64,000 nt of DNA from a virus. The notes below the pieces were generated by a model, which had not been told where the DNA came from, did not search any database, and worked only from the letters and a program-made list of their open reading frames with translations. Position 1 is the first letter of the stretch, and each line of letters starts with the position of its first letter. The stretch is taken from IMG/VR virus record IMGVR_UViG_3300045988_083782. One strand, 5' to 3'. A program made the position numbers and the translations under genes. Below are positions 5,630-38,438 of this stretch, one piece after another.

Positions 5630-5640
5630 GTTTAAACAAA

Positions 5641-5663: not shown

Positions 5664-5680
5664 AAAAACTTATATTTGTT

Positions 5681-6256: not shown

Positions 6257-6381
6257 TTGCCCATTTCCTTGCCTTTAAAGAAGAGCTATTACACCATGTG
6301 TGCAATTGTATACCCTATAGCAGAAAGTGCGTAAAAAAGGCTAAGAATGCGTTTTATTTAGATAACGTTATATTTGAAAAG

Positions 6382-7032: not shown

Positions 7033-7499
7033 TGTAGACTGAAAAACTTAACTACAACAGAAAATCTTACACTATTGCAGACTATTATGTAAGCTACAAG
7101 AACTATATAGAATAGGATACAGTATATGATATACCCTATTCTACTTTTAGAAATATAGTATCTGATTACTTTAAATATATTCAATAGGAAGTAATAGAAG
7201 GTAGTAAAGAGTTTAAGTTGCCATGTCGGTTAGGTACGCTATGTATTGTGAAGAGATAGCCTAAGAATTTTGATAGTAAAAGCTTAAGAATAGATTATCA
7301 CGAAAGTAAAGTACAAGGTAAGATAGTATACTTCTTAAATGAACACTCAAACTTTTTTAAATTCAGGTTACACTGGTCAAAGAAAGAGTCACTACTTACT
7401 AATAAAACTAAATATTAGTTTATACTTACTAGAGCAAATAAGAGAAGACTTGCTCAGATAATCAAGAATAAAGAGCATGATTATATTGAAATAACTTAA
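7032..7499 (+). CDS. Hypothetical protein (TAG-recoded)
   Basis: The ATG overlaps the previous TAA (taATG). Frame 0 has 5 in-frame TAGs, including codon 2. TAA at 7497-7499. Confidence 0.55.
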
Positions 7500-7521
7500 C
7501 TAGCCGCTAAAAGATTAAACT

Positions 7522-14290: not shown

Positions 14291-14291
14291 T

Positions 14292-16022
14292 ATGGCAGTA
14301 AATAGATATAGCTAGCCAGCATAGGCAGATTTTATCAATACATATGTACCCATTAACTTTGGAGAGTTATATAGAATTGGTACTACTCAAAAAGCAGCTG
14401 TAGATCAAGCAGCTGCTAATTTGCAAAACAACATACAGAAATGGAGTGAATTTCAATCTCCTTCGGCTGTAGATACTAAAAGATATTATGATCTTACTAT
14501 TGGTTCAATGAAGGATTATATTACAGAACTTGCCAGTAATCCTGATTTATTGAAAACACAAGAAGGTAGATCTAGACTGTAGTCAATGATTAATAATGTA
14601 GACTATAATGCTTTAAGCAATCTTAAGCAAAGCAGAGACGCAATGTTGTAGAGACAGAAAGTAGATCAGCAACTTATGTTATCTGACAAGTATAATCCTT
14701 TGTGGCATAAAGTAGATTACACAGGTTATAATACACAAGCTGCTGGTATATTTAATGACGTGTCACCGTTAGCATATAAGTCTGAGGTAGACATTGTGAA
14801 ACCGTTTGTTGATAACCTTAAACCTGGATTCATACGTAATCAAGGAGGATGGGAATACAAAGGTGTATCTGAAGCTAGAACTAGAGAAGAAGTAGATAAG
14901 AATATATCTAGTATACTTAACACTCCTCAAGCACAGAAACACATTGAAGTGTTACAACAGCAAGGTCTTAGTCCCGAAGAAGCTACAAATCAATTTGTCA
15001 ATAGTATATACAGAGCTGCTAAGGAATTTGCTTATGAAGATAGAGAAAGAGATCCTTGGTTCCTTAAAAGCATGGAATTGGCAGCCAGAAGAGCAGCTAA
15101 AGAACAAACTCCTACCATGCTCAACAATCTTACTACTATGATTCATAATGATAGTAGAAAGAAATTACTTGAGAACTTTAGTGGGCTTAATCAACAGACT
15201 ATACAAGGTATGCTTAGGGGTCAAGAACTTACTCCTGAACAGAGGGATACACTTATGTATAATATGTCTCCAGATGTAATTCAAAACAAATTAAAATCTG
15301 GTTTCTTAGAAGTAGCTAAGAATAAAAAGAACTTAAACGCTGGAGCTAAATGGGTATTAGATGTAGTATCTGCACCATTAAGCCCAAGTGCCAATAACAT
15401 ATATGCTAAAGATGGTTCTACTGAAAAATTAAGCGACAATACATACTTAGCAAATGATTCACGTAATTTCATACTCGCTGATAATTTAGCTTACGCTATG
15501 ATGGGTACTAGTAGAAATGCTGTACTTGGTAGAGATGCTGCTAAGAATCCGTTATTACGTAAAAGTATTATCGCTAGAGACAAGTTCAATAAGCTATGGG
15601 AATCTGGAGATAGATTTAACGGCTTTATTGTAAAAGGGGAAGGAAGAACTATTACAGATGGAGGTAGAGTATATCATGTAAAGAATGTATTTATACCTGC
15701 TGATCAGCTAAGTGATTTTACTACTGAAGACAAAGGTTTAATTGGTAAACTAGTTAGACAAGGTGATATTGGTGATTCAGAAACATTGTCAACAGTAAGT
15801 GAATTAGATGATGAAGGAAATGTAATAGACAGAAAGACAAAAAGAACACGTACTAAGAGCGATAATGCTAGTCTCTATTTAAAAGTACAGGTAGTTACTC
15901 CTATCGCAGATGAAGGTGAGAGAGCTATCGAAGCAGATAATATCTATACTAAAAAGACGAGAGGTTTGAGTTCTAAACAGACAGATATTCAGGCCGAAAT
16001 CTCGGAATATGAAAGACTTTAA
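14292..16022 (+). CDS. Virion protein (TAG-recoded)
   Basis: ATG 14292 and track ORF 14676-16022 are both frame 0. There are 4 in-frame TAGs in the first 385 nt. TAA stop. Confidence 0.7.
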
Positions 16023-19000: not shown

Positions 19001-22000
19001 CTAACGCTATTATACTTAAAGATTTAGAAAGATTTGAAAAGAATTAGCAATCATACGAAGAATTAGCAGAAGAGCCTAGTATAGAAGAAACTCCAGAAGT
19101 AGACTTTGTTCCAGAAGTAAGTCCTGAAAAGGATGATATTGCTATCAGAAGAACAACTGATAAGTATGAAGATATTTATGGAGAAGAAGTAACTACAGAA
19201 CCTGAAAAGAAGACTATAGTCAAAGAAGAAGTAACCGAAGAAGATATTCCAGAGGATGTTGATACTGAAGATGGAGACTATATTGAGAGCAAACCTGTAA
19301 AATCTACAGAACCTACTCCAGAAGAAGTAGATAAATCTTCACAACTAGAAGAACAAGAGGAAGCAGTTGAGGAAACAGATGAAGCTCCTGAACCCGAACC
19401 AGAACCTGAAGATGAGCCTGTTACAAAACAAGATGTTGTAACAAAGAAAATCGATAGAACTAAACCTCTTAGTCCGTCTTTGTTTAGAGAAGAACCTGAA
19501 GATGTAGATCTTAGAGGAATAGAACAAGGAGTAGAGGAAAAGGAATTCAAAGAAGGTACTGTAAAAGATAAAGTACAGGAAGGCGTTGAAGAAAAAGAGT
19601 TTAAAGAAGGAAGTGTGGTAAAGAAAACTAAAGTAGAACAACCTGCTACTCAAGCTCCTGAATAGACTCCAGATCCAGTTCCTGCTCCAGAAGCAAGAAC
19701 GGGTACATCTATTCCTGATAATAGCAGATACGGGATAGATGAACAAGGTAATGTATTATTAGATGGTAAACCTGTAGATCCAGCTAAGATAGAATTCGCT
19801 GACGCTGAACTACAATTCTTAGATCAAGATGGAAGTAAACTGGATGCTTTAACAGAGTCTGCTAAGAAAGATCCTACTTCTGTAAAAGGAGTAAGCACTT
19901 CACAAACACTAGTAGCTGCTGGTAAAGTTGGTAAAACTTTATTTTACTTACCAGATGCCGTTAAACCATTAGATCTACCATTCAAATTACCACACGAAGG
20001 CAAGTTAAACACTGGAGAAGAACTTGCACACGCACTAGTAGATCCTACTTTCTTAGACAGAGTAAAGGAAGAAGGATAGGCTTATTTTGCTATTGGTAAA
20101 TATGGAAAGAACAATACATTTAATCCTAACGATGCTACTACTTTTGATAGTGCTGATATATACCTTATTATAAAGTTAGGAGATAATGTATACGCTACCG
20201 CTTTACGTAAACCTAAAGATGCAGAAACATTCTATTTAAGACGCGGAGAAAAGAATGTAGACGATGTAAACAGACTTAAAGACTTCCGTAATAAGATCAT
20301 TTCTGCATACTTTCAAGGAAGAACTGATATACCTACTACTGCTCTTACACATGTTGTTCCTACTTCTATGAATAGGACTAATGGAGTATTCAATACATAG
20401 AAAGATGCAGACGGTAATCCTGTATACAGAAAGCTTAATGAAGTAAAAACTTTTGCTATACCAGAAGATCCTTACGCTTTACTTGATGAAGTAACATTTG
20501 GTTATGGTACTGGTATAATGTCAGAGTTGAATCCTATGGCTATCAACTCTTTAGATAAGACTGTCGCACTAGCAGATAGAGGTGGATATTCTGGTAGTAT
20601 CTACATCTTTCCTAAAGTAGAAAATACTCCGTCTAGACGTTATAGTGCACCTATAATGCTTAGTGAAAAGTTCTTTAGAAATCCCAATGTGACATCTCCT
20701 GAAGAAGTTCAGCTGTATGATAAACAGAAAGGTATAAAGAAGAGTTTTCCTGAGTATATATATGACTTACTTGTTGGTAATGTTGAGGATAGATACGGTA
20801 TACTTAACATTATTGTAAACAATGGCGATCATACCAGCGTATCTAACAAGTTAGCTAAGAAAGCAAATTTCTTAGTAGCTAAACAATTGTTCTTCGATCC
20901 TGAAACTAATACACTCAGACTTGGTGTAAAGAATGAAAATACTGGTAGATATGAATCTGTAGTATTAAAAGTAGACTAGATAGAAAGATCTAAGTAGCTT
21001 AAAAGAGAAGTAATATACAACATCATGTAGAACTATCACTGGAATACTGATGTTGATGCTATGATAGCTCCTGTTAGTGAACAGCTAAGAGATCTGATGA
21101 TACAATCTCAGAAAGATAAACTAGTATTATTCCCGGGAGAATTAGAGTTTACTAAAGAAGACTTAGGTATTAAGAAAGTAGGATCAAAACTTGTTAAAGA
21201 TAGAGAAGAAGCTCCTTCATTACTTAATTGGATGATTAGAAGTGGTAAGCTTATGACTGATGTAGGTGAATAGGCTTTCAATGCTCCTTTCTTATATGTT
21301 AATGATATTCAAGTTGATGAAACTAAATTACCTAAACAAGAAGTAAAAGAAAAAGAGGAAGTTAAGCAGCCTGGCCAGACAGCTAAACCCTCTCAAAGTA
21401 GAGCGGCTAAATTCTATAATCAATTAGGAAAAGCTGATAGTAACAGTCCTAAAGTAAATAGACTACTTACTAAAGAAGAAGCTCAAGCTTTGAATATGCG
21501 TACTCCTAAAGGTATGACTCTTTACTATGATGCTAATGGTAAATTAGGTCTTATGGCTACTCCTCAAGGTGTATATTCAGATTCTACTAATGAATAGACT
21601 GGAGCATTTGTAAATACTGAAGAAGCTCGTAAATGGTTAATTAATAAATTAGGTTTAAAACCAGAGCAAGTATTTATTACAGAAGCTGCTATGCGTATGG
21701 GTAATAACCCAGAAGTATATGGTGTTACTAGAGTAGCTGCTGATACTCTACTTGGACAAATTATTCTGTCTAAGAAAGGTAGAGAAGGCATTGAGTATCA
21801 CGAAGCATGGCACTATGTAAACTTATTAGTACATTCTAATACTGAAAGAGAGATACTGTATAGAGAATACTTGAAGCAATATCCAGAATATTCTAATGCT
21901 ACTAAAGCTGAACTAGAAGAGTATTTGGCAGAAGACTTTAGAACATGGATGCTTACTGAGACTAAACCTAGATATATTATCTTAAAAGCATTTAGAAGAA

Positions 22001-25000
22001 TTAAGGACTTCATAAATAAACTGTTTAATAGAAACGATTCCCTACTTAGTAGTGTATATAAGAGAATCAAGAATGGTCAGTACGCAAAAACTCCATTGAA
22101 TGAAGAGTCTATTAAAGAGTTTAAAGATGCTTACTATAAAGGTGTATACTTTAGTATTCCTGGTATAACTAAAGAACAGCAAGAGAAGATTAAGAGCATT
22201 ACTGATCCAGGTACATACTATGATGTAGTAGACTCTCTTACTAATGCCGCTATTAGTTTGTTTGGTATTAGAACTCAAGAAGACATCGATGGACTTAGTG
22301 ATAAGTTCAAACTGTTACTTCAGATACTTGAAACTAGTGTTGAAAGTGGAGCAATACCTGAAGGTAATGAAAACATTGCTAGAGAAGTAGTAGCAAACTA
22401 TGACTTGTTTCACTCAGCTGTAATTGACAATCTTAGAGAGCTTTCTATTAAAGAGATAGAAACTAAAGACGACGAGACTAAAGCTAGTGTAGATACTGGT
22501 GAAGTAAATCCTAAAGAGATATTTGATAGAGTTGCATACGAATTCTCTAAAAAAAGTAATACATCATTTAATGCTAAGTTATTCTTCTATTCTATTCCCA
22601 AAGAAGAATATGTCTATAATGTAGATGAAAATGGTAACGAAGTAAGAGAATTGCAGCCTGTAAAAGATAGTATATTCGGTATGGGAACTACTGTACCGTT
22701 TGATGTTGTTTGGAATAAAATAATGGATAATCTGTGGAGTGTAGAAACTTGGGAAGATATTATAGGTATGTCTCAAGAACTTGCTAAAACAGATCCTTTC
22801 TTCCAATCTCTGTATAACAGTCTTACAGGTGATAATACTCCTGACGAAAATACTCAAACTCAGTTACTTGTTACTATCAAGAGTGCGAAGAATCAACTTA
22901 CTACTATTCAGTTTGAAGAAGCTTTTGAGAAATCTAAATAGAGTAGAGAGTATGATGAAGCTGGAGATATAAAAGAAACAGTAAAAGCTAAAGCCGGTAA
23001 TTGGACTATATTATCTTCAGAGAATCTTAGACTTATTCGCAAATACCCGAGACAATGGAGCACATTATTCTATGTGTCTGGTATGGTAAACAAAGAAGAT
23101 CCTAATGATGTACATGTTGATGAAGCAAGATATAAGAGAATAATCAAAGATTATACCAATATCAAAAAAGAGCTTCATGCAATGGCTCAAGACTTCATAG
23201 GTAAGAAGCGTAGACCGCATACTCAAGATGAAGTAAGAAATCTCGTACTACAATCAAAACAGCAATTAGTAGATATACTTAATACTATAGGTATACCAGT
23301 TGATGTAAATACTATAGATTACTTGTTATACAATGTAGATTCTGTTAATGAAAATCTACCTACTATTTCACAGTTTGATAAATTATTTAGTATGTTATCT
23401 AGTTCAGTTCCGGGTAACTTTACAGATAGTGTATTTGGTAACATTGGTTATTTAGCTGGAGGAAAAGGCAGAAGACAGAATAAGAATGTAAACTATGATA
23501 ATGTATTCGTTGGTGGTGAAAAGTCTATGATATCTCAGTTAGCTGTAGCATATGGTAGAACACATCCAAATCCTGCTGAATTTAGTGTAACTGGTCCTAA
23601 TAACACCACAATGTATCCTATTAGTGAAAATAACTACATTGCTGACCAGATTAGATGGGCAAACAACGATCCTAATGTTGTATAGGAGATGTTAAAATCT
23701 TCTTATAATAAGAGCTCTATTCTTATGAATGGAGTAGCAAACGGGGCTCACCTTAAACTACATACATTTATTGCATTAAAGAGTAAAGATACTAATGAAA
23801 GTAGAGACTATTTTGGAATATCTCCTATTGAGGATTATATTAGTAAAATGGTATTTACTCACAATAACTACATTACTTTACCTACTATGGCTGATAAGAA
23901 GACATGGTATGCAATTAGTGGAGTAAACTTATTCCACGATTTAGTTAGTAAAACTAAAGCAGTAGATGTATTTACAGAAGATGGTTTACAGACTGAATAT
24001 CAACAATTAAGTGATTACAGATTATCTGATAGCACTATTGAGGCTTTCTATAATTACTTAGTAAGTGAATTTAATGCTATTAATGACTATTTTGCAAATA
24101 AACACATTGTTGAATAGAACCCTAATCTTTATATTAAAAACTATCACGGTAAGATAAAGAAAGGAAAGATGGATGCATCTGGTAATGGAGGAAGATTTAG
24201 ATATTTCTCTTCACTTAAGATGCGTACTGAAGATGGTACTTATAAGTATTTCCCACTAAATCAATGGTTATATCAGGCAGAATTAGCTGAATACAATGGA
24301 GTAGAAGGACAAGTTCAAAGAAGACTAGAACAAATAAGCAATAGATTATTTGATGAATCAAATAGATAGGATATTTATGATTCTATCAATGCTACGCTTA
24401 TGGATCTGATTAAGAATGAAGTTAGGTAGCTGAATAATTTAGGTATTATCAAAGTAACTAAAGAAGGTAGCTTAGTCAACAAACTTATACCTGAAAACAT
24501 TATAGAAGAGTATTTTAGTAATACTGCTAAATTGCCTAAAGAACATTCTTCTAGAAGAAATAGATAGGATGCAATATTCTCAGTAATAGCTAACCATACT
24601 CTAAACACCATTATATCTGTCAATGAAGTAGAGAGAATGTTTGTTGGAGATCCAGCATACTACAAATGGCAGAGAAACAAAAAAGATAATTCAGTAATTA
24701 CTGAAAGAGCAGTAGACAAGATTAAACGTCTTAGTTCTGTATTATCTACAGGTTCTAATCTTCGTACTTATTGGGGAGAAGGTGATCCTAGAAATAATTC
24801 TAAATTCACTGTAATGAATCTGTCAGATAATAATGTAGTATCTAGTAGTTATGACGGTTTGTACAGATTGTTTAAAGCTGCTGAAATAAGAAGAGTGCTC
24901 AAGAAAAGAAATCCCAATCTAACTGACGAACAGTTACTTAAAATGACTAGAGATAAGCAGTTAGAAAAGACCTTTAGTACATTTGATAAAGATACTAGAA

Positions 25001-28000
25001 ATAAGATAGATGCCAGTGTATCCAGACAAGCTGGAGCATACGGTATGGATGATAGAGGTAATGGTAATATTAATCAAGCTGATGCTGCTGTATATATCAG
25101 ACCTGCTCTATATAAGAGAATTATTCAAGCTGTAGGAGAATGGTCACCAAAAGTTGAAAAGGCTTTTGACTTAATGGAATCTGATACAAATTGGTTATCT
25201 GATCCAGAGTTATATAGTCAAGCACTAGAAACTCTTATCAAACCTTTGAAGATGGTATACTTTGGTAATCATACTAACCCTCTTCTCAACCTTACAATTC
25301 CTGTATTTGATAAGATGGCAATCTTCCCAATGTTTAAAGTATTAGCAAATGCTGATAACCGTATTATTTATGATAGAATGAATAATGCAGAACTTGGAGA
25401 GATTGATATGATTGCATTTGAATCAGCAATTAAAGTAGGATCTAGAGTATTAGTAGACGCCTATAGTGATGCTCAAAACTCTAAATTCAATGCTGAAAAC
25501 TTCAACAAACCTTCTACATCTACTATCAAAGGATCAGATATAAGAGAGTAGTTAGATAGCAATAACTCTATGCTTCCTACTTATATACAAGATTTAAAGA
25601 ATCTGAGATTACAGATGAATACAGATCCTCACGAACATACTGATAGATCATTTGGTACTCAGGTATCTAAGATCGCTTTATCAAACATTGTTAAAGATCG
25701 TGTGTATGGTTATAATAAGGGTAGAAAGATAACAGGAGAACAGATCATCAACAATGTAATGGGTAGCATTACAGCTTTATCTGATAAAGGAGCAAGCTCT
25801 TTAAAAAGAGAATTCTTCAATAAAGATAAAGAATTAGACAAAAAACAATTATCTAGATTCTTAAAAGAACAAGGTAAACAAAGTGGATTGTCTACTGATG
25901 CTATCATGTCTATGTCATATGATCCTACTACAGGAGAAATGATAGCTCCTTTGTCTTCATTAAGTACTCGTAAGTTCATTGAAAGTAGAATTGTATCTCA
26001 AGTAGGTAAAAAAGCTGTAGATATTAACACTCCGGGTGGATCTGCTATTCAGATGGCATTCTTTGGATTTAAGAAGACAAGTACTTTATCACAAGAAGAT
26101 GTAAGTAGAGCGTATAATGATGGTAAGCCTCTGAAATTCTTGAAAGATAATGGTAGTATGGAATGTATGCTTAGTATAAACTTCTTTAGACACGTAGTAC
26201 CAGAAGAATATCAAACAGATTATACTACTATGCGAGAATGGTTGTTGTCTAAAAATATAATTGGAGACAAAGCTGATCCATTTGCAATTGGTTATCGTAT
26301 TCCGACACAGGGTCTTTCATCTACTGCATCATTAGTAGTTGCAGATGTATTACCCGCAGTAATGGGTGATACTATTGTAGTTCCTGATGAATTTACTGCA
26401 ATGACTGGTTCTGACTTTGATATTGATAAATTGTACATCGCATCATACTGGTATGATAAAGATGGCAATAAGATTGAGTTCGATGAAACTAAGGATACGT
26501 CTATGCACGATATCTATCATGCTAATAATGAAAAAGCATTAGTAAATAGACTGTTAGACATGTATAACCTAGTTATATCTGATGATAGTAATATTGATGA
26601 AACTAGAGCTCCTCTTGATAACCTTACTAACATTCTGAAGAAAGATATTCTTCCTATAGTACAGGCTGCATCAAATGCCGAAGCTGCTCCTTTCTATGAA
26701 GCATTACCATCATATCAGTTATCAAAGAAGTTTGAATATACTGGTGGTAAAATGGGTATTGCTCCGTTTGCTTTGCATTCTACTAACCATGCTATGACAC
26801 AAGCAATGGGTCTAAAGATGGATTTCGGAGCATATGGAAGTATGTTCAATCTTGAACAGATTGATTCTATCACTAGTCAAGACGGTTATCGTATTATGGA
26901 CTGGTTATCTGCAATGGTTAATGCTCATGTAGACGTTGCAAAAGACCCGTACATTATGACATTGAATGTTAATGATGTTACTTATAATATGACTAACTTC
27001 TTACTTAGAACTGGTAAGGGTACTACTACCTTCTATTTCTTACCTCAAGAGATACTTAAGGACTATGTAAATGAAATGCTCAAAGCAAACGGTGTATATG
27101 GTGTAGATCCTAATACTTCTATAGCTAACAGAAAAAAGGATATTATAAATAAATTATATAATACCTATGTATCTTTAGCTCAGAAGAGTATAGAAGAAGT
27201 GGAAGATCCTGATTTGAGAGATCAGTATTCTGATATGTTAAATAACTGGAAAGCATTCCATGCTGGCAAGAAGATCAATAAAGAAGATACTCCAAAACTT
27301 GCAAATGCATTAGATCAATCTATTCTAAAAGAGAATCTAATCAAGAACAATAAAGGTGAAAAAGACTTTATGTATTACTATAATCAGTTATTGGTATTTA
27401 GAACATTTAACGCTCTTACTCCAATGTCTGATACACTTAACACATTAGTTCAGAGATCTCAGATTGATACTAAGAAGTATGGTAATACTTTAGCTCTAGA
27501 AAGTAATTTCTACAATCAGGTACAAGACTTTATAACTGGAGAACAGGATTCATTCTTTATGACAGATGCAAATGGTAAGACATTAGAAGTAAATGCTTTA
27601 CTTCAGTATTATAATAATACATTCTTATCTACTAAATTAGAGCATGCTGTATTTATACCCAGATAGATTCTTAAAACACAACTTATTACTGCTACTTATC
27701 AATATAAGAATATAAACAATTATGTGTTAGGTAGTGTAGTAGGTAAAACTTATACTCAAGATCCTATTACTGGAGATGAAATAGTAAGAAGTAAATCTAC
27801 AGGTAATAAAGACTTAGTTACACAAGTAGCAGATGCTACAGAGACATACATTAGAACTCATAACCAGCAAGAGAAAATGTTTAATCTTACTGATGAATAG
27901 ATCAATAGTATGTTGTTTGGAGATAAGAGTATGTGTAAGAGATTATTTAATCTTAAACACAACATAATGAATAATCCAGCAAGCTATCCTGAATTAGTAG

Positions 28001-29229
28001 ATGCTGAAGGCAATATCACTAATGAATTACTTAACTATTTGATACCTGTACCAGCTACAGATAAAGATGTAGAAGGCACAGCAGATAGAATTCAATTGAT
28101 GAACTCTTCAATGTCTAACAGTTCTAACTTTGAGAATAGACTTATCGCTTACTTTACTGATCTATTGGATAGTAAAGATGAACGCATTAGGAATTTTGCA
28201 AATGACCTTGCTAGATATGCTTACTTAACATCTAATGATAATAAGGGTGTAAATACATTCTTCCATTTAGTTCCAATGGATTGGAAGATGCAACACGGTT
28301 ATATCGAATCTGTAAAAGATGTAATTCACGTACTCAATAATAGTGACTCAATAGATAAAATAATCACAGATATAGACAATCATTCTATAAGTAGTTATCC
28401 ATCTATTTCATTGTCAGTAGCTCGTAATAACTGGAATAATGAAACTATTGTACCTACTAGATCTATTCCTAAATCTGGCGCTGGTAGTATTATTGCAGAT
28501 GATATACTTCCTAACTCAGTATCTAGAAAATATAGAAAAGGGGTTAAATATGCTCTTAGTTTTGTGGATAGTAAAAACAGTAATTCTGACTTTGTTAAAG
28601 TGTCTTATGATGGAAATCCATAGAATGATGTACTCTATGTTAAAGTAGGTAAAGTAAAAGCATTTGATAAGAATGACCCTAGCAAACCCCTTAAAGGTGA
28701 AACTAAGACAGTTTATATGGCTATACCTAAATTAGGTTCGTTATAGAATGGTAAGCTTATACAAGAGTATCATAAGAACTATGATGAAAAGTCAGCATTT
28801 GATAATAACAATATACAAACATTAACATCTGAATAGATTATGACTTTCTACAATTCACACGAAAGAGGAAATTATGCAATATCTTATAAAGGTCTTAAGT
28901 TTGATGATATTATTGTTGAATTTACTCCGAATGAATACCTTGAAGGAGGATTAGATTATAAGTTAAGTGATGCAGGTCAAAAAGCTGTTGACAGAGATGT
29001 AAATAATGCTCTTGGTGATTATGGATTACTTGAAAATCCAGCATTTAAAGATAAGATGGAATAGAGATTGGCAATTGCAGAAGCAATAGGAGATGCTCCT
29101 GTAAAGAAAACAAGCAAAGTTCTTGATTATCGTATGTTTAAAGAAGAACCTGAGAACTTTAAATTTGAAGATAATATTACTGAAGAGTATTTAACTAAAA
29201 AAGATGATGATCCCAGTAGTCATTGTTAA
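16009..29229 (+). CDS. Giant virion-packaged RNA polymerase-like polyprotein (about 4400 codons), TAG-recoded
   Basis: 24 track ORFs from 16009 to 29064 are all frame 1, interrupted only by TAG (about 28, including a TAG-TAG doublet at 16843-16848). Single TAA at 29227-29229. Carries DFDID at 26413-27 after IGYRIPTQGLSS, HEAWH (HExxH) at 21799-21813, and an acidic E/P-rich repeat linker near 19050-19700. Confidence 0.85.
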
Positions 29230-29240
29230 AAATAAATAAT

Positions 29241-32200
29241 ATGTTTTGTCCTTAGATAAATAATTAGAAGGTAAGAGATTCCTTCAACGATATAGTGGAA
29301 GCTCTTGGTGGTGAACCTTTGACCATCGAGGAGTTTAAAGACGGAGAATTAAGGAGACAAAGAACAGGTGTGAATTATGCGGCTATGAATGCCGCATATT
29401 CCATCTGGGATATGAATAATGGCAATAGCATAGATAGAGCACCTAATGGTGAGCCTTCTATACTTTTTCAAACTCTTATGGAAAAGTATGATGGAGACAC
29501 TATGTAGGCTATTTAGGCTAAGTCCAAAGTATATAGCAACGGATTCAAGAAATGGTTTGGCGATTGGATAAATAATCCAGAAGAATCATCTAAAGTAGTC
29601 GATGAAAATGGAGAACCGTTAATAGTGTATCATGGTACACCCCAAGATGAAATAAAAGAGTTCTCTATAGATAAAGTAAAGATGCCAGATTCACAGAAAA
29701 TAGCTGACGTATTTACTAAAGGTTTTTATTTTTCTAAAAATCGTGATACTGCTAAATATACGTATTCTATAAAATACGAAACAGTAGGAAAAGGTGCAGA
29801 AAACCTATAGTATGGATCTGTAATAGGTTGTTATTTGAATATAAAAAATTTATATAAAGCTGAAATAGATAGTAAAGAGAAGAATCTTGTTGATGAAAGT
29901 ATAAATGTACGTAAAAAAGTTCTGGATAATATCGATAACAATGATGGAGCGGAAATGATTATATACGATATAGATCAAGGAGACCCCGAATTACATTCAA
30001 TATAGACTTAGTTTGTAGTAAAAGATGCAACCAATATAAAATCTGTAGACAATAGTGGTAGATTCATATCTAATTCTCCTAATCTATTTGATGGTGTATT
30101 CTCCCCAGAAGCATTAAAATTCAATGAAGTAAACATAAATAAAGCACAAGAAGCTCTGAATAACTTTAGAGCTAACAGATATGACTTTTCAAATGTTACA
30201 GCCAATCTAAGACAAAGAATTAGAGATGGTGTTAAACAAAGAATTAAAGCAATTAATAATAGAAATATACCTAATAAGTCTGCTATAATAACTTCATTAG
30301 AATACCAGCTAAATAACTTAGAAAACAAAACTGTATCAGATCTTGAGAATATAGTATTCTTTATTAAAGATGTATGGTCTAATATGGAAAGTCCTATTGG
30401 TCTTATACTTAGAGCTTAGAAGAATATTACCGAAGGTAAAGACAGTGGATTGAGTAATAATTAGCTTATTCAATTTCAGCAGGACTACTACGGAATGTAT
30501 AATACACTTAGTAATGAAATTGCTGCTGAATTATTCAACTCAGATAGATACAGAGACTTATTAGGAGCTCAAGAATTCGACGATCTTAAAGCTTAGATAA
30601 AGTAGATCCAAGAGATGTTTGGATATGCTCAAACAGCCTTAAATGACGTAATAACAGACCATGCTGCAAAGACACTGTTAATGCGAGGTATTGATGCAGG
30701 ATCTAATACTATACGTAACTATGTTAATACTTAGCTTACTTCTACCGCTAACGATATGTCTATGTTAGTAAGACTTATTGGTGCTGGAGATAAGATGTCT
30801 GATGAAGCTCTTAGAGTAATGTTTAATATAGTACAGAGAGCAGAGGATAAAATTGCTGAAAACACTTATATTAAAGGTAGAAAGCTATTAAAGTTACTTG
30901 ATAAAGTAGGCACTAAGCAGTTGAAACTATTTGAAACTGATTCTAAAGGAAAGAAGACAGGTTATTTAGTTAGAGATAAAAAGTATGGATAGTTTAGAGC
31001 TGAGTTTAAAGACTTTATGAAAGCTCTTAAGGCTAGATACAATGTATCTGAAGATAGACAAGTGCCAGATGATATCAATGTAAGAAAGCAATTTAATGCC
31101 GAAAAGAATGCGTGGCTTGAAGACCACTGTGAAAGAAGATTTACAGCAGAATACTATAACTTATTTAATAGCCTTAGTGATGAAACTATTGCCGCTAGAG
31201 ACGCTATCCAATTTAAGATCTATACTTTATTAGATAAAGCAAGAGACAAGCACGGTAATGTAAATTTGGAGAAACTAAGCGATGCAGAATGGGATCAGTT
31301 ACAAGGATACTATGTTTAGAAAAAGCAATTAGCTTCTATTTACTATCCTAGTGGAGCAAAGAAACAAGATATTGAATTATAGATAGCTCTCGAATTACAA
31401 GATTTAAATAAACAGCTTAGTGGAGCTTTAGAGTATAAAGTAAATCAAAAGAAATTTGATGAAGTAAAAGCTGAAAAGAAAAGAACTTTATCAGAAGAAG
31501 AATTCAAGAAGTGGGAACAAAGAAATACTAGAGTAGAAATAGATCCTAAATTCTGGGAACAGTTAAAGAAGATACAAAGACGAGAATATGGTGAAGAGTA
31601 TGCTAGAATTCAAGAAGTAAAGAGAGAAATACTTAATACTTATAGAGATGAAAGAACTGGTACTCCCAATACTCACTTAATGTCTCGTGAAGTAATAAAA
31701 ACACTTAAAGCTCTTGATAGAGATTTACGTAGAATTAGAAGAAAAACTAAAAAATCAGGTAAGAAAGGTGAATTACAGTTTAAAGATATTGCTAAAACTG
31801 TAACTACTTGGCAGTATAAGAGAGATAAAAAGGAAGCAATTGCCAAAGAAGCTACAAATCCTGGTTATTATGCTTCTTGGGAAGCACAACATCACACGTA
31901 TACTGCCGAAGGTAAGGCAATACCTAATTCTTACTATACTACTATTGTACCACTTAATGAAGAGTATATTCATATAGTACCTAGTAGAGCATTCTCAGAA
32001 TTATCTGAAGATTCACAATTCTACAATAAGAATTATAATGAAAATTCAGATGAATACTATCAACCTAAATCTTCTTTATATGGCAATGAAAAGCAGTTCG
32101 CTGAACTGATGAAAGACAAAGATCTAAAGGCTCTATATTCTGCTATATTAGAGACTATGCACGAATCCAACGAAAAATTACCATTCTTAACAAAGAATGA

Positions 32201-34001
32201 TCCATACAAATTACCACAGATTAGTGGTAGTATGTATCAGTTTGTAAAGAGTTAGGACAATCTGATTAAAGGCATGTTAAAGTATACAGCAGATTCCTTT
32301 GTAGCTAATTCTGATGACGTTGGTTTTGCTCCAGAAAAGATAACAACTAGACCTGATGGATCTCCATTACGTATGGTTCCTACTTACTATATTAAAGATT
32401 TAGACGATGTAACCACAATGACTAATGACTTAGTAGGAGCTGTTGTTTCTTACTATAAAATGGCAGAGAATTTCAAGTAGAAGACAGCAATTGCTCCAGA
32501 CCTTGAGATTATAAAGAATCAGTTAGGTTTAAGAAACTTTACTGGTACTAATACTACTATGGATAGAGCGAAGAAATGGTTATTGTAGAAACAAGATCCT
32601 AAGAAAGGTACAGAAACGCGTGTATACGAGTTTGCTAAGAACTTTATAGATATGCAAGTATATGGGGAGCTTACTAAAGGTAACTTCTTTACTATAAAAG
32701 GCAAACAGTATAATTTGTCTAAGTTACTTTCGAAACTGAAGAATTGGGGAACCACTATTAACTTGGGTTTGAATTTCATTAGTGCTTCTGTAGGTTTTAT
32801 TACTGCTTTACATACTTCTTTCATGATGGCTGTGCAAGGTAGGTATTTCAATATGGGTAATTATATGCACGCTTGGAAAAACACTATAACTAATCTTCAT
32901 AAATCTGCGTGGAACATAGGTGCTAACAATATTAATAATAAGTATATTAACCTAATGGAATACTTTGAGGTTGGTACTGAACAAGATAGATTGTTTAAAG
33001 AATCAAATCTTAATAGAGCGGTAAAAGTAGCTAAACGAGATTGGGCATTCGGAATTTACTCCATGTCTGATTTTATAATTAAAGGCACTATCTTAAATTC
33101 CGTTATGTTAAACTTTAGGTACTTCAATGGCGAATTTCTGACAATGGAATAGTTCATGTAGAACTATAAAAACAATGAAGCAGAAGGAAAAGCAGTTTGG
33201 AGTACGTTACCTACTTCTTATGATGTAGTAAGTGTAGAGAATGGCATAATTAAAGTAGATCCTAAGTATGCTAAAGCATTTGAAGCTAAGAAGTTTGTAA
33301 TTAAAAACACCGCAGCTACTATGGCAGCTACAGCAGATGGTATGTTAACTCCATTACAGAGAACATAGATGCAAGCAAATGCTTGGGGCGCATTGTGTAT
33401 GATGCATAGACAGTATCTTCCTAATATGATATAGGAAAGACTTACTATGAAAAAACACTATGACTATAATACTGGAACTACTAGAGAAGCTCTTTATAGA
33501 ACACCACTTAGAGTAGCTAAAATGCTAATAAAAGACTGGGGTCAAAAGAAACAAATACTAGAAAGTTTAGATGCTTCTGATAGAGCTAATTTAAGACAAA
33601 TAATGACAGAATTACCATTACTGTTTGTAGTATATCCATTAATCTCTATAGCATTATCAGCAGAAGCAGATGATGATAAAGATAATTGGTTGAAACAATT
33701 ATGTGCATTACTTGTAGTTAGGTCTAAATTCGAAGCAGGAGCTCCATATAATGTATTAGATATTGTAAATACAGTTAAATCTCCATCTGCTATATTTAGT
33801 ATGACAGATAATATTTCTACTGTAATTAACTATCCTATATACTTGTTTAATAATGGCGATAAAGTATCCAAGTATGGCCCATATAAAGGATGGACTAAAC
33901 TAGAAAAATCATTACTTAAATTAACACCATTTAAGAATGTATGGGAACTTCAAGATCCAGCTATTAAGCGAAGGTACTTCTAGACACAAATTGATAAATA
34001 A
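29241..34001 (+). CDS. Large polyvalent ejected/cargo protein (about 1590 codons), TAG-recoded; possible ART-like domain and C-terminal TM helices
   Basis: Track ORFs 29295, 29625, 30756, 31017, 31680, 32274, 32652 and 33447 are all frame 0. About 23 in-frame TAGs; TAA at 33999-34001. Contains WFGDW...SKVVDENGEPLIVYHGT...GFYFS. The start is uncertain: ATG 29241 or GTG 29295. Confidence 0.75.
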
Positions 34002-35897: not shown

Positions 35898-36839
35898 TTA
35901 ATTCATTCTTATATTCTGTAAAAACTCTTCAAAATTAATTACAGGAATATCTTCGTCGTCATCATCATCTTCGTAGTCATCAAAACTAGCTTCGCAATTA
36001 TCATCTTCTTCACAAGAAGTATCTTCACAATCATGAATTTCTTCTTCTTCAGTTGAATCAATTGGTTTTGAATTCTTAAGCTCAATATTCATATCCTGAG
36101 CAATTACTGTATTAGACAGTTCAGGGAACATAAGCTTTTCATCGATAAATGATAAAATGTTATCAATAGATAACAAACAGAAGTTATTAATAATGAAATT
36201 ATAAGTATTTTCAATTTCGTTCAAAGCAATACCTTTATCTCTAAGGATTTCCTTCAAGAAACGAGCATTATCGTTTGCTTCAAAGTGTCTCTTGTAACGA
36301 ATGCGAGAACAGCGATTCTGTAAGAATTCACTAATATTGTTTTCATTATTACAAGTAAAGAGTACTAGCTTTTTAGCATTAGTCTGTACACCATCTAACC
36401 ATCCTAACAGTTCCTCTGTATTCCAATGCTTATCCACTTCATCAAAGATAACTGCTACTGGAATAGAGAACTTACGGAAAAAATCATTGATTCTTCCTGT
36501 AGGGAAATCTTCATCAACGACAATAACTGGTAGATTCGAATTCTGTGCAATGACTTTAGCCATAACAGTCTTTCCGGTACCTTTAACACCAGAAAGCATT
36601 ACGCCAGTTGATAATTTATCAGTTTTCTCAAAGTAAGTATTTACACGTTTAATGAAGATTTTATCTTCATCTGTAGAATACACTTTAGAAGGCAAGTTTA
36701 GTGAACCATCCTCTTCAAAGTAAGACATACCTTCATACCGATTATACTTTAGATTATAGACTTTGCCATGCTCTAATTCATAATCTAATCCTTTGGGTTT
36801 ACTAATAATCTTATCACCTAGTTTAATAAATTCTGCCAT
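35898..36839 (-). CDS. AAA+ ATPase with an acidic C-terminal tail
   Basis: Walker A is GVKGTGKT and Walker B is VIFDEVD. The C-terminus is D/E-rich (DDYEDDDDDED). Confidence 0.8.
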   Translation of the reverse strand: MAEFIKLGDKIISKPKGLDYELEHGKVYNLKYNRYEGMSYFEEDGSLNLPSKVYSTDEDKIFIKRVNTYFEKTDKLSTGVMLSGVKGTGKTVMAKVIAQNSNLPVIVVDEDFPTGRINDFFRKFSIPVAVIFDEVDKHWNTEELLGWLDGVQTNAKKLVLFTCNNENNISEFLQNRCSRIRYKRHFEANDNARFLKEILRDKGIALNEIENTYNFIINNFCLLSIDNILSFIDEKLMFPELSNTVIAQDMNIELKNSKPIDSTEEEEIHDCEDTSCEEDDNCEASFDDYEDDDDDEDIPVINFEEFLQNIRMN

Positions 36840-36845: not shown

Positions 36846-37235
36846 TTATTTTTTTGAAAGTTCGTTGACCATCTCGTCAACTTGTTTCTGATTACGGACT
36901 AAAAACAACTTATAGTCCTTGTTTTCTTGTTTTAAATAATACTTAAAGATCTTCCATCTTAACGGAAAACTATCCGTTACAAGACCTTTACATTCTATGA
37001 TAAAGTTTTTTCCAACAAAATCGGGAAGATAAGTCATAGCTCTTACCTTTTCTCCATTATATTCAAACTTTGGAATAAGCTCAAAGTGAGTAGATTCATA
37101 TTCTGCATCTATTCCAGCTTCTTTAAGCTTTTTGTAGGTATAAGTTTCGAGTTTACTTCTAAACTTTATACCATCATATATATTTGGAGTAGCATTACGT
37201 ACTTTTCCCTACGATTTCTTCTTACTTTTATTCAT
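36846..37235 (-). CDS. Small PD-(D/E)XK nuclease, DUF1064/Holliday-junction-resolvase-like, with an in-frame TAG at codon 9
   Basis: The track shows only the C-terminal 63 aa (YLPDF...IIECKG). The frame stays open upstream through DGIKFRSKLETYTYKKLKEAG to ATG 37233-37235. That ATG overlaps the upstream gene's stop. The single TAG lies at 37209-37211 on the (-) strand. There is no in-frame ATG, GTG or TTG between the TAG and the conserved core. Confidence 0.7.
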
Positions 37236-37464
37236 AACTAATATGAGTGTATGAAATATTTTTGTGAATAAGATATTCTGGTTCCTTTTTAGCAATATTA
37301 TTAATTGCCTTAGCTACACGTCGAGTATCTTCTTGAAGTGAAGACAGCATATATGCTAAATATAATTTCGGAAAGAACCGAATAATAAAAGGAACAAACA
37401 CAAAAATCTCAAGTAATGCTAATAGAAACGCTGCTAAGGTTAAGTATAAAATAAATGCTGTCAT
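37228..37464 (-). CDS. Small membrane protein
   Basis: 78-aa ORF with an N-terminal hydrophobic helix pair. It overlaps its neighbours by 4-8 nt. Confidence 0.6.
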   Translation of the reverse strand: MTAFILYLTLAAFLLALLEIFVFVPFIIRFFPKLYLAYMLSSLQEDTRRVAKAINNIAKKEPEYLIHKNISYTHISYE

Positions 37465-38438
37465 ATTTTTTTCTTTTTTAGTTCTTTATCTAGCCATTGG
37501 CTAACTTCTTGGAATGATGTACTCTTAATAGAATCAGAGACATCTTTAGAGTGAAATTTCTTATGCATTAACATGACTTCTAAGTCATATTGTTTACCTA
37601 TTTTACGACTATACTTAACACCAGCTTTATCTCTATCAAATAGTACGATAATACGCTTAAATCGCTTCTTTAGGTCCTCTAAGACTACATTAGGTATAAA
37701 TGTGGATTCACTTGATGGAGATATAGCACTATATCCCATTTCATGCAAACACATTACATCCTTCATACTCTTAGTAATAAACAGTATATCACCAGAATCT
37801 GGCAATTGTTTAAAACCTTGAATATCCATTTCGGTTAAGTTATTACGCCATTTCGTATACTTATCTCCTAATGGTCTATATATCTTAAAGTTGTTATATA
37901 CCTTATAGGCATACATAGGATTTTCATTCTTGTAAACTCCTTTAACAATACCATTACATAAATAGTATTTAATACTAAATACATCATATTTCTTTAGTGT
38001 ATCTAGGGAAATATTAAACTGAGCCCAGTAATTGATATCAATTTGTGTAAAGTCTTGCCTTACGATACCAATTACTGTCTCTGTTGACGGTATATATTGC
38101 TTAGAGCTAACGAGTTTTGTTTTGTTGGTAATCTTTAGTTTGTCTACTATATCCTTTAGGATTTCATTGTAATCTGTAATACCAGTATATAATGAAACAA
38201 ACTTTATTACATTACCACATTCACCTGTTCCATGATCCTTAAATAAGAGTTGTTTGGTACGCTTACTATAATATATTCCAAATGAAGGATTCTTATCCTT
38301 TCTAAATGGACTATTATAGATCATACCTACTTTAAAGCTACCAATATACTGAGCATATATGTCATACTCAGTTACTTTAGATAGTATATAATCTAAAGTA
38401 ATATTAGTAGGTAGTTTTACTCTTTTTTTATCGTACAT
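37461..38438 (-). CDS. DNA primase (TOPRIM domain)
   Basis: N-terminal NSPFRKDKNPSF...FKDHGTGECG. C-terminal TOPRIM-like ILFITKSMKD...VLFDRDKAG. Confidence 0.8.
   Translation of the reverse strand: MYDKKRVKLPTNITLDYILSKVTEYDIYAQYIGSFKVGMIYNSPFRKDKNPSFGIYYSKRTKQLLFKDHGTGECGNVIKFVSLYTGITDYNEILKDIVDKLKITNKTKLVSSKQYIPSTETVIGIVRQDFTQIDINYWAQFNISLDTLKKYDVFSIKYYLCNGIVKGVYKNENPMYAYKVYNNFKIYRPLGDKYTKWRNNLTEMDIQGFKQLPDSGDILFITKSMKDVMCLHEMGYSAISPSSESTFIPNVVLEDLKKRFKRIIVLFDRDKAGVKYSRKIGKQYDLEVMLMHKKFHSKDVSDSIKSTSFQEVSQWLDKELKKKKI

What the first reader, a model, noticed from the sequence alone, without database searches (positions are those of the whole stretch)
36846..37235. A resolvase-like nuclease in the early module carries a single in-frame TAG at codon 9
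The track shows only a 63-aa ORF (36846-37037) holding the catalytic half YLPDF...IIECKG. The same frame stays open for another 57 codons upstream. That stretch encodes ...NIYDGIKFRSKLETYTYKKLKEAGIDAEY..., which looks like the conserved N-terminal half of DUF1064-type small PD-(D/E)XK Holliday-junction-resolvase-like proteins.

The only in-frame start is ATG 37233-37235, which overlaps the stop of the upstream gene (tATGAATAA). It is followed by MNKSKKKS and then TAG at 37209-37211. No ATG, GTG or TTG lies between the TAG and the conserved core.

Under the standard code this gene would yield an 8-aa peptide. With suppression it yields a 129-aa nuclease. This would make one replication-module enzyme, needed late for resolving branched DNA before packaging, dependent on the code switch.
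Basis: partly seen in the sequence, partly recalled or inferred. Interest (0 to 1): 0.7.

Follow-up and report, generated by a model that had tools for sequence, protein, structure and literature searches.

The report
Amber-gated junction resolvase in crAss-like phage
A small DNA-junction-cutting enzyme sits among the early replication genes of a gut crAss-like phage, and it can only be made once the phage reads the stop codon TAG as glutamine; relatives keep one such TAG near the gene's start, so it looks like a built-in translational delay.

Summary
On the minus strand, ATG 37235-37233 is followed by eight codons, TAG 37211-37209, then 120 open codons to TAA 36848-36846. No ATG, GTG or TTG occurs before Met67.

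The read-through product is a DUF1064 / T7-endonuclease-I-like PD-(D/E)XK nuclease (Pfam 48.8 bits, cutoff 24.7). One catalytic Glu (E30) lies upstream of Met67. That upstream half is under purifying selection (dN/dS 0.04-0.26).

The window is a TAG-recoded Suoliviridae (crAss-like) phage. Plus-strand late genes are full of in-frame TAGs. The minus-strand replication block has none, except this gene.

Across about 100 related loci, 70 of 71 distinct TAG-bearing orthologues have a TAG within codons 3-16, and 68 carry no other TAG. The TAG sits at different sites in different N-terminal tails, sometimes aligned with CAA-Gln. The rest of the gene almost never has one (5 TAG against 216 CAA/CAG).

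Best reading: a selected single-codon amber gate that ties resolvase synthesis to the late code.

Caveats:
- RefSeq and the protein databases already translate this gene through the TAG.
- The general idea that recoding delays late functions is published.
- No CUA suppressor tRNA was found.
- Some recoded relatives lack the TAG.
- Timing is inferred, not measured.

The parts
36846..37235 (-). Full read-through CDS: 129 sense codons (TAG at codon 9 read as Gln) plus TAA stop 36848-36846. Encodes a DUF1064 / T7-endonuclease-I-like junction resolvase.
   Evidence: The identical 129-aa protein is in public databases.
37233..37235 (-). The only in-frame start codon (ATG). It overlaps the TAA stop of the upstream ORF (tATGAATAA).
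37212..37235 (-). Eight codons before the TAG (MNKSKKKS). Under the standard code this 8-aa peptide would be the whole product.
37209..37211 (-). In-frame amber codon TAG, codon 9: the proposed gate. It sits immediately before the conserved GKV(R/K)NATPN core. The same position is CAA (Gln) in cr4_1, L017 and L058.
37038..37208 (-). Codons 10-66: the N-terminal half missed by standard-code ORF calling. It contains catalytic Glu30 (GAA 37148-37146) in the FRSKLE motif.
   Evidence: family hits for this stretch alone; invariant Glu aligned to T7 endonuclease I FRSGLE; dN/dS 0.04-0.26.
36846..37037 (-). The 63-aa standard-code ORF starting at Met67, with its TAA stop. It holds the PD...ExK part of the active site: D72 (37022-37020), E81 (36995-36993), K83 (36989-36987). 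Met67 is not conserved as Met; other lineages have Ile or Leu.
37228..37464 (-). Upstream 78-aa hydrophobic ORF of the same operon. Its stop overlaps the resolvase start. No Pfam hit.
35898..36839 (-). Downstream AAA-type ATPase gene. It starts 6 nt after the resolvase stop, is TAG-free, and belongs to the same operon.
37461..38438 (-). DnaG-type primase gene of the replication block. No TAG in 26,408 aligned codons across 82 related loci. It serves as the contrast for the resolvase.
1..34001 (+). Late (structural and giant-protein) block, heavily TAG-recoded: 102 TAGs in 11,067 codons, including 29 in the 4419-codon ORF 15970-29229. It shows that the phage reads TAG as a sense codon.

Best explanation
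The locus is one intact gene for a 129-aa homologue of T7 endonuclease I (Pfam DUF1064, PD-(D/E)XK fold), a junction-resolving nuclease. Translation starts at ATG 37235 and must pass an amber codon at codon 9.

This phage reads TAG as glutamine in its late genes (genetic code 15), while its replication block avoids TAG altogether. While TAG still terminates, ribosomes that start on this gene would release an 8-residue peptide and make no nuclease. Once TAG is decoded, the full enzyme is made.

The gene sits inside an early operon: its start overlaps the upstream stop, and the next gene begins 6 nt after its own stop. The single TAG near the 5' end therefore uncouples the nuclease's synthesis from that of its neighbours without needing a separate promoter. 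It also avoids producing long truncated fragments.

What is shown:
- the reading frame and the family assignment;
- that the N-terminal half is needed for the active site;
- that TAG is a sense codon in this phage;
- that the resolvase is the only gene of the replication block with a TAG;
- that relatives keep one N-proximal TAG while its site changes.

What is inferred:
- that TAG terminates early in infection;
- that the delay is adaptive, by analogy with T7 gene 3 and T4 gene 49, where junction resolution is needed before packaging and a free resolvase is harmful (my own knowledge of those systems, not tested here);
- what agent decodes TAG.
For: Anatomy.

Family:
- DUF1064 scores 48.8 bits against a cutoff of 24.7.
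- PHROG 190 'Holliday junction resolvase' scores E 1e-14.
- A profile of 15 diverse orthologues gives T7 endonuclease I as its four best PDB hits (1m0d E 0.004, 3cae, 1fzr, 2pfj). FRSxLE, TYxPDF and ExKG align, and E30, D72, E81 and K83 are invariant.
- E30 lies upstream of Met67.

The N-terminal half is coding: dN/dS is 0.04-0.26, with dS at or above 1.

Code usage:
- Late plus-strand genes have 102 TAG in 11,067 codons.
- The early minus-strand block has no other well-supported gene that needs read-through.
- Across 95 related loci, the primase has 0 TAG in 26,408 codons and the 715-aa gene 0 in 43,097. Only 3 stray internal TAGs were found in all other early genes.

TAG reads as Gln: it aligns with CAA-Gln in relatives, both at the gate site (KKQGKV) and at an internal site (NQKQVDE against T*KQVDE).

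Conservation with turnover:
- 27 distinct N-terminal tails each carry exactly one TAG, at codons 3-16.
- Near-identical cores have different tails and different TAG sites.
- Among 71 distinct TAG-bearing genes, TAG makes up 70 of 95 Gln-type codons in the N-proximal segment, against 5 of 221 in the rest. 68 of the 71 have exactly one TAG.

Non-recoded relatives (cr118_1, cr55_1, cr50_1, L046, L058) have no TAG.

Literature:
- Recoding as a block on late functions has been proposed, and TAG read as Gln has been shown by proteomics in crAss-like phages.
- Those papers describe the crAss-like replication machinery as standard-coded and do not mention this gene.
Against: - There are no expression or timing data for this phage. 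The early/late assignment rests on gene content and strand.
- No tRNA with a CUA anticodon was found in the 64-kb window or in the complete genome of relative cr115_1, so the decoding agent and the time at which it acts are unknown.
- Several TAG-recoded relatives make the same enzyme without an N-terminal TAG: Oafivirinae cr7_1, cr131_1 and cr273_1, and cr4_1 with L063-65. cr6_1 has only an internal TAG. The gate is therefore dispensable.
- If the gene were translated only after the switch, internal TAGs should be nearly neutral, yet they are rare. That fits a limit on dose as well as it fits a timer.
- A Lys-rich, probably disordered tail (AAG is one step from TAG, and Lys-to-Gln should be tolerated there) is also where a neutral TAG would most easily arise.
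- The sequences are phylogenetically related, so the Fisher p-value is descriptive only.
Confidence: 0.65

Rival explanations
1. Tolerated, not selected. TAG is just another Gln codon here. Because the resolvase is only needed late, a TAG could drift into the one mutable, Lys-rich part of the gene. The enzyme still depends on TAG decoding, but the codon has no regulatory purpose.
For: TAG aligns with ordinary CAA-Gln in relatives. AAG-rich tails are one mutation from TAG. Recoded Oafivirinae, and cr4_1 with its close relatives, do without the TAG.
Against: There is exactly one TAG in each of 27 distinct tails, never zero or two within the two subfamilies apart from cr4_1 (with L063-65) and cr6_1. 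This holds despite saturated synonymous divergence (dS at or above 1) and repeated replacement of the tail. The TAG share of Gln-type codons is 74% in the N-proximal segment, against 2% in the rest of the gene and 20-41% in late genes. L117 keeps a TAG at codon 7 although ordinary Gln codons sit at codons 3 and 16.
Confidence: 0.2
2. Dose limiter rather than timer. The amber codon is read through inefficiently whenever the operon is translated. This keeps a toxic nuclease at a low level relative to its operon neighbours throughout infection.
For: The TAG is single and sits at the very start. Internal TAGs are avoided (5 against 216), as expected if each extra TAG cut the yield further. No dedicated suppressor tRNA was found.
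Against: Late ORFs carry up to 29 TAGs in 4419 codons, so decoding must be efficient when those genes are translated. All other early genes avoid TAG completely, which argues that TAG is close to a full stop when they are translated. The base following the TAG varies (G, A, C, T), so no conserved leaky context exists.
Confidence: 0.12
3. There is no read-through. Either the real product is the 63-aa ORF from Met67, or a protein started at a non-canonical codon after the TAG, or the gene is decaying. The ATG-to-TAG mini-ORF would then be an unrelated leader peptide.
For: Standard-code ORF calling gives only the 63-aa ORF.
Against: Codons 10-66 are under strong purifying selection. They carry the invariant catalytic Glu. 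They score as DUF1064 on their own. Met67 is Ile or Leu in other lineages. No ATG, GTG or TTG lies between the TAG and the core in any tail, and every tail has an in-frame ATG upstream of its TAG.
Confidence: 0.03

Closest known systems
Bacteriophage T7 endonuclease I (gene 3; PDB 1m0d, 1fzr, 2pfj, 3cae)
   Same: It is the best solved-structure match to a profile of the orthologues. FRSxLE, (T/L)PDF and ExKG align, and all four corresponding catalytic residues are invariant. A Pfam Phage_endo_I hit has E 5e-05. The protein has a basic N-terminal tail, is small, and is encoded by a phage among DNA-metabolism genes.
   Different: Sequence similarity is marginal: the score is below Pfam's Phage_endo_I cutoff, and PDB E-values are 0.004-0.03. 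The protein is shorter, 129 aa against the 149-aa 2pfj chain. The T7 gene has no in-frame stop. Junction cleavage and the domain-swapped dimer were not tested here. The AlphaFold model was too poor to compare.
Pfam DUF1064 (PF06356) / PHROG 190 'Holliday junction resolvase'
   Same: The score is above the curated cutoff and covers profile positions 10-104 of 117. PHROG 190 scores E 1e-14. The family was predicted to be PD-(D/E)XK nucleases related to T7 endonuclease I (PMC1189080).
   Different: The family name itself says the function is unknown. The resolvase label is an annotation, not an assay.
Code-15 (TAG read as Gln) recoding of late genes in crAss-like phages (Yutin 2021 PMC7886860; Borges 2021 preprint 10.1101/2021.08.26.457843; Peters 2022 PMC9523058)
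   Same: The genome architecture is the same: a TAG-rich late block on one strand and a TAG-free replication block on the other. The relatives belong to the Suoliviridae ('Delta' group).
   Different: Those papers describe the crAss-like replication machinery as standard-coded and single out lysis and tail genes as preferentially recoded. Here one replication-block gene carries a single conserved TAG near its 5' end. No suppressor tRNA was found, as already noted for Suoliviridae.
Group I intron homing endonuclease with in-frame TGA inside an early gene of Agate phages (Borges 2021 preprint)
   Same: It is a nuclease embedded in an early transcription unit whose in-frame recoded stops are proposed to hold back its production until late.
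   Different: It belongs to a different phage clade, uses a different codon (TGA read as Trp) and is a different enzyme (a mobile-element endonuclease). That case is defined by a general preference for the recoded codon across the gene, not by one gate codon at the N-terminus with site turnover.
RefSeq orthologues annotated 'Holliday junction resolvase' (cr125_1 YP_010113164.1, cr115_1 YP_010113055.1, cr113_1 YP_010112833.1, cr60_1 YP_010112429.1)
   Same: They are the same gene in the same neighbourhood (primase, resolvase, ATPase, exonuclease) at 60-80% identity. They are annotated through their in-frame TAG at codon 4, 9 or 10.
   Different: The annotation simply applies code 15 to the whole genome. 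The positional pattern of the TAG is not commented on in the papers read here.
Phage T4 gene 49 (endonuclease VII), delayed by translational control on early transcripts (recalled from the literature, not checked here)
   Same: It is a junction resolvase needed before packaging. Its synthesis is held back at the level of translation even though early transcripts contain the gene.
   Different: The mechanism there is RNA secondary structure that hides the ribosome-binding site, not a stop codon. The protein family also differs (endonuclease VII fold).

Membership tests
Pfam DUF1064 (PF06356) | Whole-protein HMM score at or above the curated gathering cutoff (24.7 bits) | tested here: met
   48.8 bits, E 1.1e-12, residues 19-104 matched to profile positions 10-104 of 117. 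The database copies also carry PF06356.
T7 endonuclease I family (Pfam Phage_endo_I, PF05367) | HMM score at or above the curated cutoff (29.1 bits) | tested here: not met
   23.4 bits, E 5.2e-05, residues 21-86. This makes it related, but not a member by Pfam's criterion.
T7 endonuclease I family (Pfam Phage_endo_I, PF05367) | Catalytic Glu, Asp, Glu, Lys in the motifs FRSGLE, PD and ExK | tested here: met
   E30, D72, E81 and K83 are invariant in 15 diverse orthologues and align to the T7 motifs in the hmmsearch alignment to 1m0d and 3cae.
T7 endonuclease I family (Pfam Phage_endo_I, PF05367) | Domain-swapped homodimer that cleaves four-way junctions | not testable with these tools
   The AlphaFold2 monomer model had pLDDT 63, and Foldseek against the PDB gave no hit with E at or below 0.001.
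PD-(D/E)XK nuclease superfamily | PD...(D/E)xK active-site motif on a conserved core | tested here: met
   YLPDF...IIECKG, invariant across orthologues.
Code-15 (TAG read as Gln) recoded crAss-like phage | Conserved late genes are interrupted by in-frame TAG only, and ORFs are restored when TAG is read as sense | tested here: met
   The fraction of the window covered by long ORFs rises from 0.46 to 0.71 with TAG as sense, and only from 0.46 to 0.48 with TGA as sense. A 4419-codon ORF carries 29 TAGs.
Code-15 (TAG read as Gln) recoded crAss-like phage | TAG positions align with Gln in homologues | tested here: met
   In the resolvase itself, *GKV aligns with QGKV and T*KQVDE with NQKQVDE.
Code-15 (TAG read as Gln) recoded crAss-like phage | Phage-encoded suppressor tRNA with anticodon CUA | tested here: not met
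   None was found in the 64-kb window or in the complete cr115_1 genome. Relaxed ARAGORN settings gave only noise. About a third of the window's own genome was not available. The literature reports the same absence in Suoliviridae.
Code-15 (TAG read as Gln) recoded crAss-like phage | Peptide evidence for Gln at TAG | not testable with these tools
   Shown for other crAss-like phages by Peters 2022, not for this gene.
Recoded-stop translational gate on a late-acting gene (Borges model) | In-frame recoded stop in a gene embedded among standard-coded early genes | tested here: met
   It is the only well-supported minus-strand gene in the window that needs read-through. The neighbouring genes are TAG-free across 95 loci.
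Recoded-stop translational gate on a late-acting gene (Borges model) | The feature is maintained across diverged relatives beyond what drift predicts | tested here: met
   27 tail variants each carry one N-proximal TAG at varying sites. 70 of 71 distinct TAG-bearing genes have it. dS is at or above 1. Caveat: no formal phylogenetic model was fitted, and exceptions exist.
Recoded-stop translational gate on a late-acting gene (Borges model) | The protein appears only after the code switch | not testable with these tools
   This needs time-resolved proteomics, Ribo-seq or reporter assays in an infected host.

The most novel reading that the evidence does not exclude
The N-proximal amber codon is an actively selected single-codon timer. 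It has been re-created or moved many times as the N-terminal tail was replaced (at least nine different distances from the core, in 27 tails). It always leaves exactly one TAG within the first 16 codons of an otherwise TAG-free nuclease gene in a standard-code operon. If so, it is a natural reporter of the moment at which a Suoliviridae phage starts reading TAG as Gln. That clade has no recognisable suppressor tRNA, so the gate could be used to find and time the unknown decoding agent.
Probability: 0.5. Interest if true: 0.65.

Novelty: new member of a known kind. Interest (0 to 1): 0.5.

Why it matters
The idea that recoded phages use stop codons to hold back late functions rests mostly on block-level patterns. 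Here the pattern is reduced to one codon, in one gene, inside an operon whose other genes avoid that codon. Comparative evidence shows that the codon is kept while its position changes.

This gives a sharp, testable prediction: resolvase protein should appear later than primase protein made from the same transcript, and a TAG-to-CAA change should abolish the delay. It also provides a compact reporter (the first 20 or so codons) for when and how TAG decoding is switched on in a phage family that lacks an obvious suppressor tRNA.

For annotation, it shows that genomes with two codes cannot be split cleanly into a standard-code block and a code-15 block.

Tried and rejected
- **Structure:** AlphaFold2 on codons 10-129 with a shallow 12-sequence alignment gave pLDDT 63 and pTM 0.63. 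Foldseek against the PDB returned nothing with E at or below 0.001. No structural claim is made.
- **Single-sequence searches:** Single-sequence and shallow-profile searches of PDB sequences were not significant for T7 endonuclease I. Only the more diverse profile reached it. NCBIfam gave no hit.
- **Suppressor tRNA:**
  - ARAGORN default, ARAGORN with introns and the Rfam gathering search found none in the window or in cr115_1.
  - ARAGORN at a relaxed threshold produced dozens of obvious false positives, including one 'cta' call on the wrong strand in cr115_1. I disregarded it.
- **Other amber-gated early genes:** Apparent TAGs in orthologues of ORFs 42906-43418, 43445-44458, 34541-35548 and 42074-42841 lie upstream of the real Met or past the natural stop. 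They were artefacts of my stop-to-stop queries.
- **Convergence in another family:** Steigviridae orthologues (cr108_1 and 17 IMG/VR loci) have no TAG. Their fetched flanks showed little sign of TAG recoding (in most, the long-ORF fraction rises by only 0.02-0.06 with TAG as sense), so the test was uninformative.
- **Code-change machinery:** Pfam scans of 20 early ORFs found no release factor or aminoacyl-tRNA synthetase. They found only an ECF-like sigma factor and an L7/L12 C-terminal-domain protein.
- **Frameshifting:** I considered programmed frameshifting on the A-rich Lys codons and rejected it, because the zero frame is the one that continues into the conserved core.

Full report
**1. 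The observation**

Reading the minus strand confirms every stated fact.
- ATG 37235-37233 overlaps the TAA of the upstream 78-aa ORF (tATGAATAA).
- It is followed by MNKSKKKS and then TAG at 37211-37209.
- The frame then stays open for 120 more codons to TAA 36848-36846.
- The mechanical ORF list gives only the 63-aa ORF 36846-37037, starting at Met67. So no ATG, GTG or TTG lies in the 57 codons between the TAG and Met67.
- The TAG is not an error. Six independent IMG/VR contigs at 98-100% identity carry it. The identical read-through protein is recorded on at least 1000 contigs in public assemblies.

**2. What the gene encodes**

With Gln at codon 9, the 129-aa product scores 48.8 bits on Pfam DUF1064 (cutoff 24.7) over residues 19-104. 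It scores E 1e-14 on PHROG 190, 'Holliday junction resolvase'. The 57-codon stretch alone still hits both.

Pfam Phage_endo_I (T7 endonuclease I) is hit at E 5e-05, below its cutoff. A profile of 15 orthologues spanning 54-86% identity gives T7 endonuclease I entries (1m0d, 3cae, 1fzr, 2pfj) as its four best PDB matches, with E 0.004-0.03. FRSKLE aligns with FRSGLE, YLPDF with YTPDF, and IECKG with VETKG. E30, D72, E81 and K83 are invariant.

E30 lies upstream of Met67, so the 63-aa ORF cannot be a complete active site. Met67 is Ile or Leu in other lineages. Codons 12-66 evolve with dN/dS of 0.04-0.26 while synonymous sites are saturated. They are therefore translated.

An AlphaFold model was too poor to use.

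**3. The genome context**

The window belongs to a crAss-like phage of the family Suoliviridae. The closest RefSeq relatives are cr115_1 and cr125_1 (Uncouvirinae), at about 80% identity in this protein.
- Plus-strand genes in 1-34001 are full of in-frame TAG: 102 in 11,067 codons, including 29 in one 4419-codon ORF.
- Reading TAG as sense raises the fraction of the window covered by long ORFs from 0.46 to 0.71.
- The minus-strand block from 34069 onward (primase, helicase, polymerase, ATPases, exonuclease) is TAG-free.
- After discarding out-of-frame and non-coding frames, the resolvase is the only well-supported gene there that needs read-through.
- At least two early ORFs appear to use TAG as their stop: 35604-35795 and 49082-49618.

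The resolvase is packed into the operon. Its start overlaps the upstream stop, and the next gene starts 6 nt after its own stop.

**4. Comparative evidence**

I collected 80 IMG/VR loci with flanks of up to 10 kb on each side, 16 stretches of RefSeq/GenBank phage records around the gene, and 3 further contigs.

*The neighbours.* In orthologues of 15 neighbouring early genes, almost no in-frame TAG occurs: 0 in 26,408 primase codons and 0 in 43,097 codons of the 715-aa gene. Only three stray internal TAGs were found in all the other early genes. Apparent exceptions proved to lie upstream of the true Met or beyond the natural stop.

*The resolvase.* In contrast, the resolvase carries a TAG in 71 of 84 distinct genes.
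- 70 of those 71 have it within codons 3-16, and 68 have exactly one TAG.
- Within these genes, TAG makes up 70 of 95 Gln-type codons in the N-proximal segment but only 5 of 221 elsewhere.
- In late genes the share is 0.20-0.41.

*Turnover of the site.* The site is not fixed. There are 27 distinct N-terminal tails, for example MNKSKKKS*GKV, MKPKNKKK*TKGRV, MKRLTKKKG*KKV, MAKLKSKIPKKKKN*GKV, MEQKKK*GKV, MKK*KKQGRV, MKR*RKKKEGKV, MRRKK*LNSKV, MLK*DHSVAKKKQ..., MRQKKK*KIGKV and MARKRIKKEGKVKNA*PN. Each has one TAG, at nine or more different distances from the core.

Genes with nearly identical cores can have different tails and TAG sites: L039 against L051, L017 against L030, and L072 against L069. 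Where the TAG sits elsewhere, the window's site is CAA-Gln or Glu. An internal TAG in cr113_1 and cr60_1 aligns with the Gln of NQKQVDE. Both observations fit TAG being read as Gln.

*Relatives without the TAG.*
- Relatives without TAG recoding (cr118_1, cr55_1, cr50_1, L046, L058) have no TAG.
- Several recoded relatives also lack it: Oafivirinae cr7_1, cr131_1 and cr273_1, and cr4_1 with L063-65. cr6_1 has only an internal TAG.

The feature is therefore characteristic of Uncouvirinae-like and Loutivirinae-like lineages. It is not universal.

**5. Mechanism**

What the sequence shows is that the nuclease can be made only by ribosomes that read TAG as sense. Its operon neighbours are built to be translatable when TAG is a stop.

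The complete avoidance of TAG by all other replication genes implies that TAG is costly when they are translated. The density of TAG in late genes implies efficient decoding when those genes are translated.

The simplest model is a translational gate. Early on, initiation at ATG 37235 yields an 8-residue peptide. Later it yields the full resolvase.

Placing the gate in the first codons avoids truncated nuclease fragments, and it needs no separate promoter inside a tightly packed operon. The biological rationale is borrowed from T7 gene 3 and T4 gene 49 (my knowledge, not tested here): junction resolution is needed before packaging, and a free resolvase is harmful earlier.

That the codon is selected, rather than merely tolerated, is supported by three findings: exactly one TAG per tail, retention through turnover of the site, and saturated synonymous divergence.

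Arguments against selection:
- some recoded relatives do without it;
- a Lys-rich, disordered tail is where a neutral TAG would most easily arise;
- internal TAGs are rare, which a pure timer does not predict but a dose limiter does.

I put the gate at about 0.65, neutral tolerance at 0.2, a constitutive dose limiter at 0.12, and any model without read-through at 0.03.

**6. The decoding agent**

No tRNA with anticodon CUA was found in the window or in the complete cr115_1 genome. cr115_1 has only tRNA-Leu(UAA) twice and tRNA-Arg(UCU). A 2026 preprint notes the same absence for Suoliviridae. About a third of the window's own genome was not available to me. The 'code switch' in this clade is therefore an inference from codon distribution, not an identified mechanism.

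**7. What is already known**

- RefSeq annotates the orthologues as 'Holliday junction resolvase' straight through their TAG.
- Large protein collections already hold the 129-aa product with Q at codon 9.
- The hypothesis that recoded stops delay late functions is published. So is a case of a homing endonuclease inside an early gene of TGA-recoded Agate phages.
- TAG read as Gln has been shown by proteomics in crAss-like phages.
- Those papers describe the crAss-like replication machinery as standard-coded. None of the papers I searched mentions the resolvase or an N-terminal gate codon.

**8. Verdict**

This is a new, well-conserved instance of a known kind of regulation. It has one unusual feature: a single amber codon near the 5' end that changes position among relatives but is always retained. 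Interest is 0.5. It is not a new principle, but it is a clean and directly testable handle on the code switch.

Noticed in passing
window 62396-62477 (-): A tRNA gene (Rfam 45 bits) with a type-II, Leu-like body but an odd anticodon loop, TCATTGA. ARAGORN calls it Asn(att). The relative cr115_1 has two tRNA-Leu(taa) genes, which align poorly with it in the anticodon arm. It is not an amber suppressor.
   Followed up: partly
window 59827-59966 (-), 58537-58697 (-), 63435-63633 (-): A Hatchet ribozyme (87.5 bits), a RAGATH-9 RNA (127.9 bits) and a RAGATH-7 RNA (147.8 bits) lie among small early ORFs. All score above Rfam's gathering cutoffs. Hatchet (two copies) and RAGATH-9 also occur in cr115_1 (L084 38623-38746, 40799-40937, 42359-42538).
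   Followed up: partly
window 57152-57532 (-): ARAGORN calls a permuted tmRNA here (tag peptide GKTFVSDYTRLSA). Rfam's gathering search finds no tmRNA. RefSeq cr115_1 carries an equivalent 'SsrA' annotation at 42525-42886, so the call is conserved but unverified.
   Followed up: partly
window 60008-60409 (-): An early ORF of 133 aa has a ribosomal protein L7/L12 C-terminal domain (PF00542, 29.4 bits, cutoff 25.9). A phage copy of the domain that recruits translation GTPases could bear on how TAG decoding is changed. Peters 2022 detected a 'ribosomal protein' from the standard-code region of a recoded crAss-like phage.
   Followed up: no
window 54593-55144 (-): An early ORF of 183 aa is an ECF-type sigma factor (Sigma70_r2 45.9 bits, Sigma70_r4_2 38.6 bits).
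   Followed up: no
window 35604-35795 (-) and 49082-49618 (-): Two early-block ORFs end in TAG. If TAG becomes a sense codon later, they would be extended by 25 and 14 codons up to the next TAA or TGA. This is the converse of the resolvase case.
   Followed up: partly
whole window; L084 and L085 (complete cr115_1): No tRNA with anticodon CUA was detected, although late genes are heavily TAG-recoded. The agent that decodes TAG in this Suoliviridae lineage is unidentified.
   Followed up: partly
L002 3450-3496, L003 3447-3493, L085 11717-11775: In cr113_1, cr60_1 and cr115_1 the resolvase N-terminal tail, including its TAG, overlaps the annotated 3' end of the primase gene in another frame by 47-59 nt. 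I did not check whether that primase end is real or an artefact of code-15 annotation reading through a TAG stop.
   Followed up: no
L118 10001-10402; L002 and L003 resolvase genes; L090 (cr6_1): Rare internal TAGs occur in the resolvase: LMQ*NSNY in L118, T*KQVDE in cr113_1 and cr60_1, I*ADYE in cr60_1, and YTY*KLKE in cr6_1. The last replaces a conserved Lys, and cr6_1 lacks the N-terminal TAG.
   Followed up: partly
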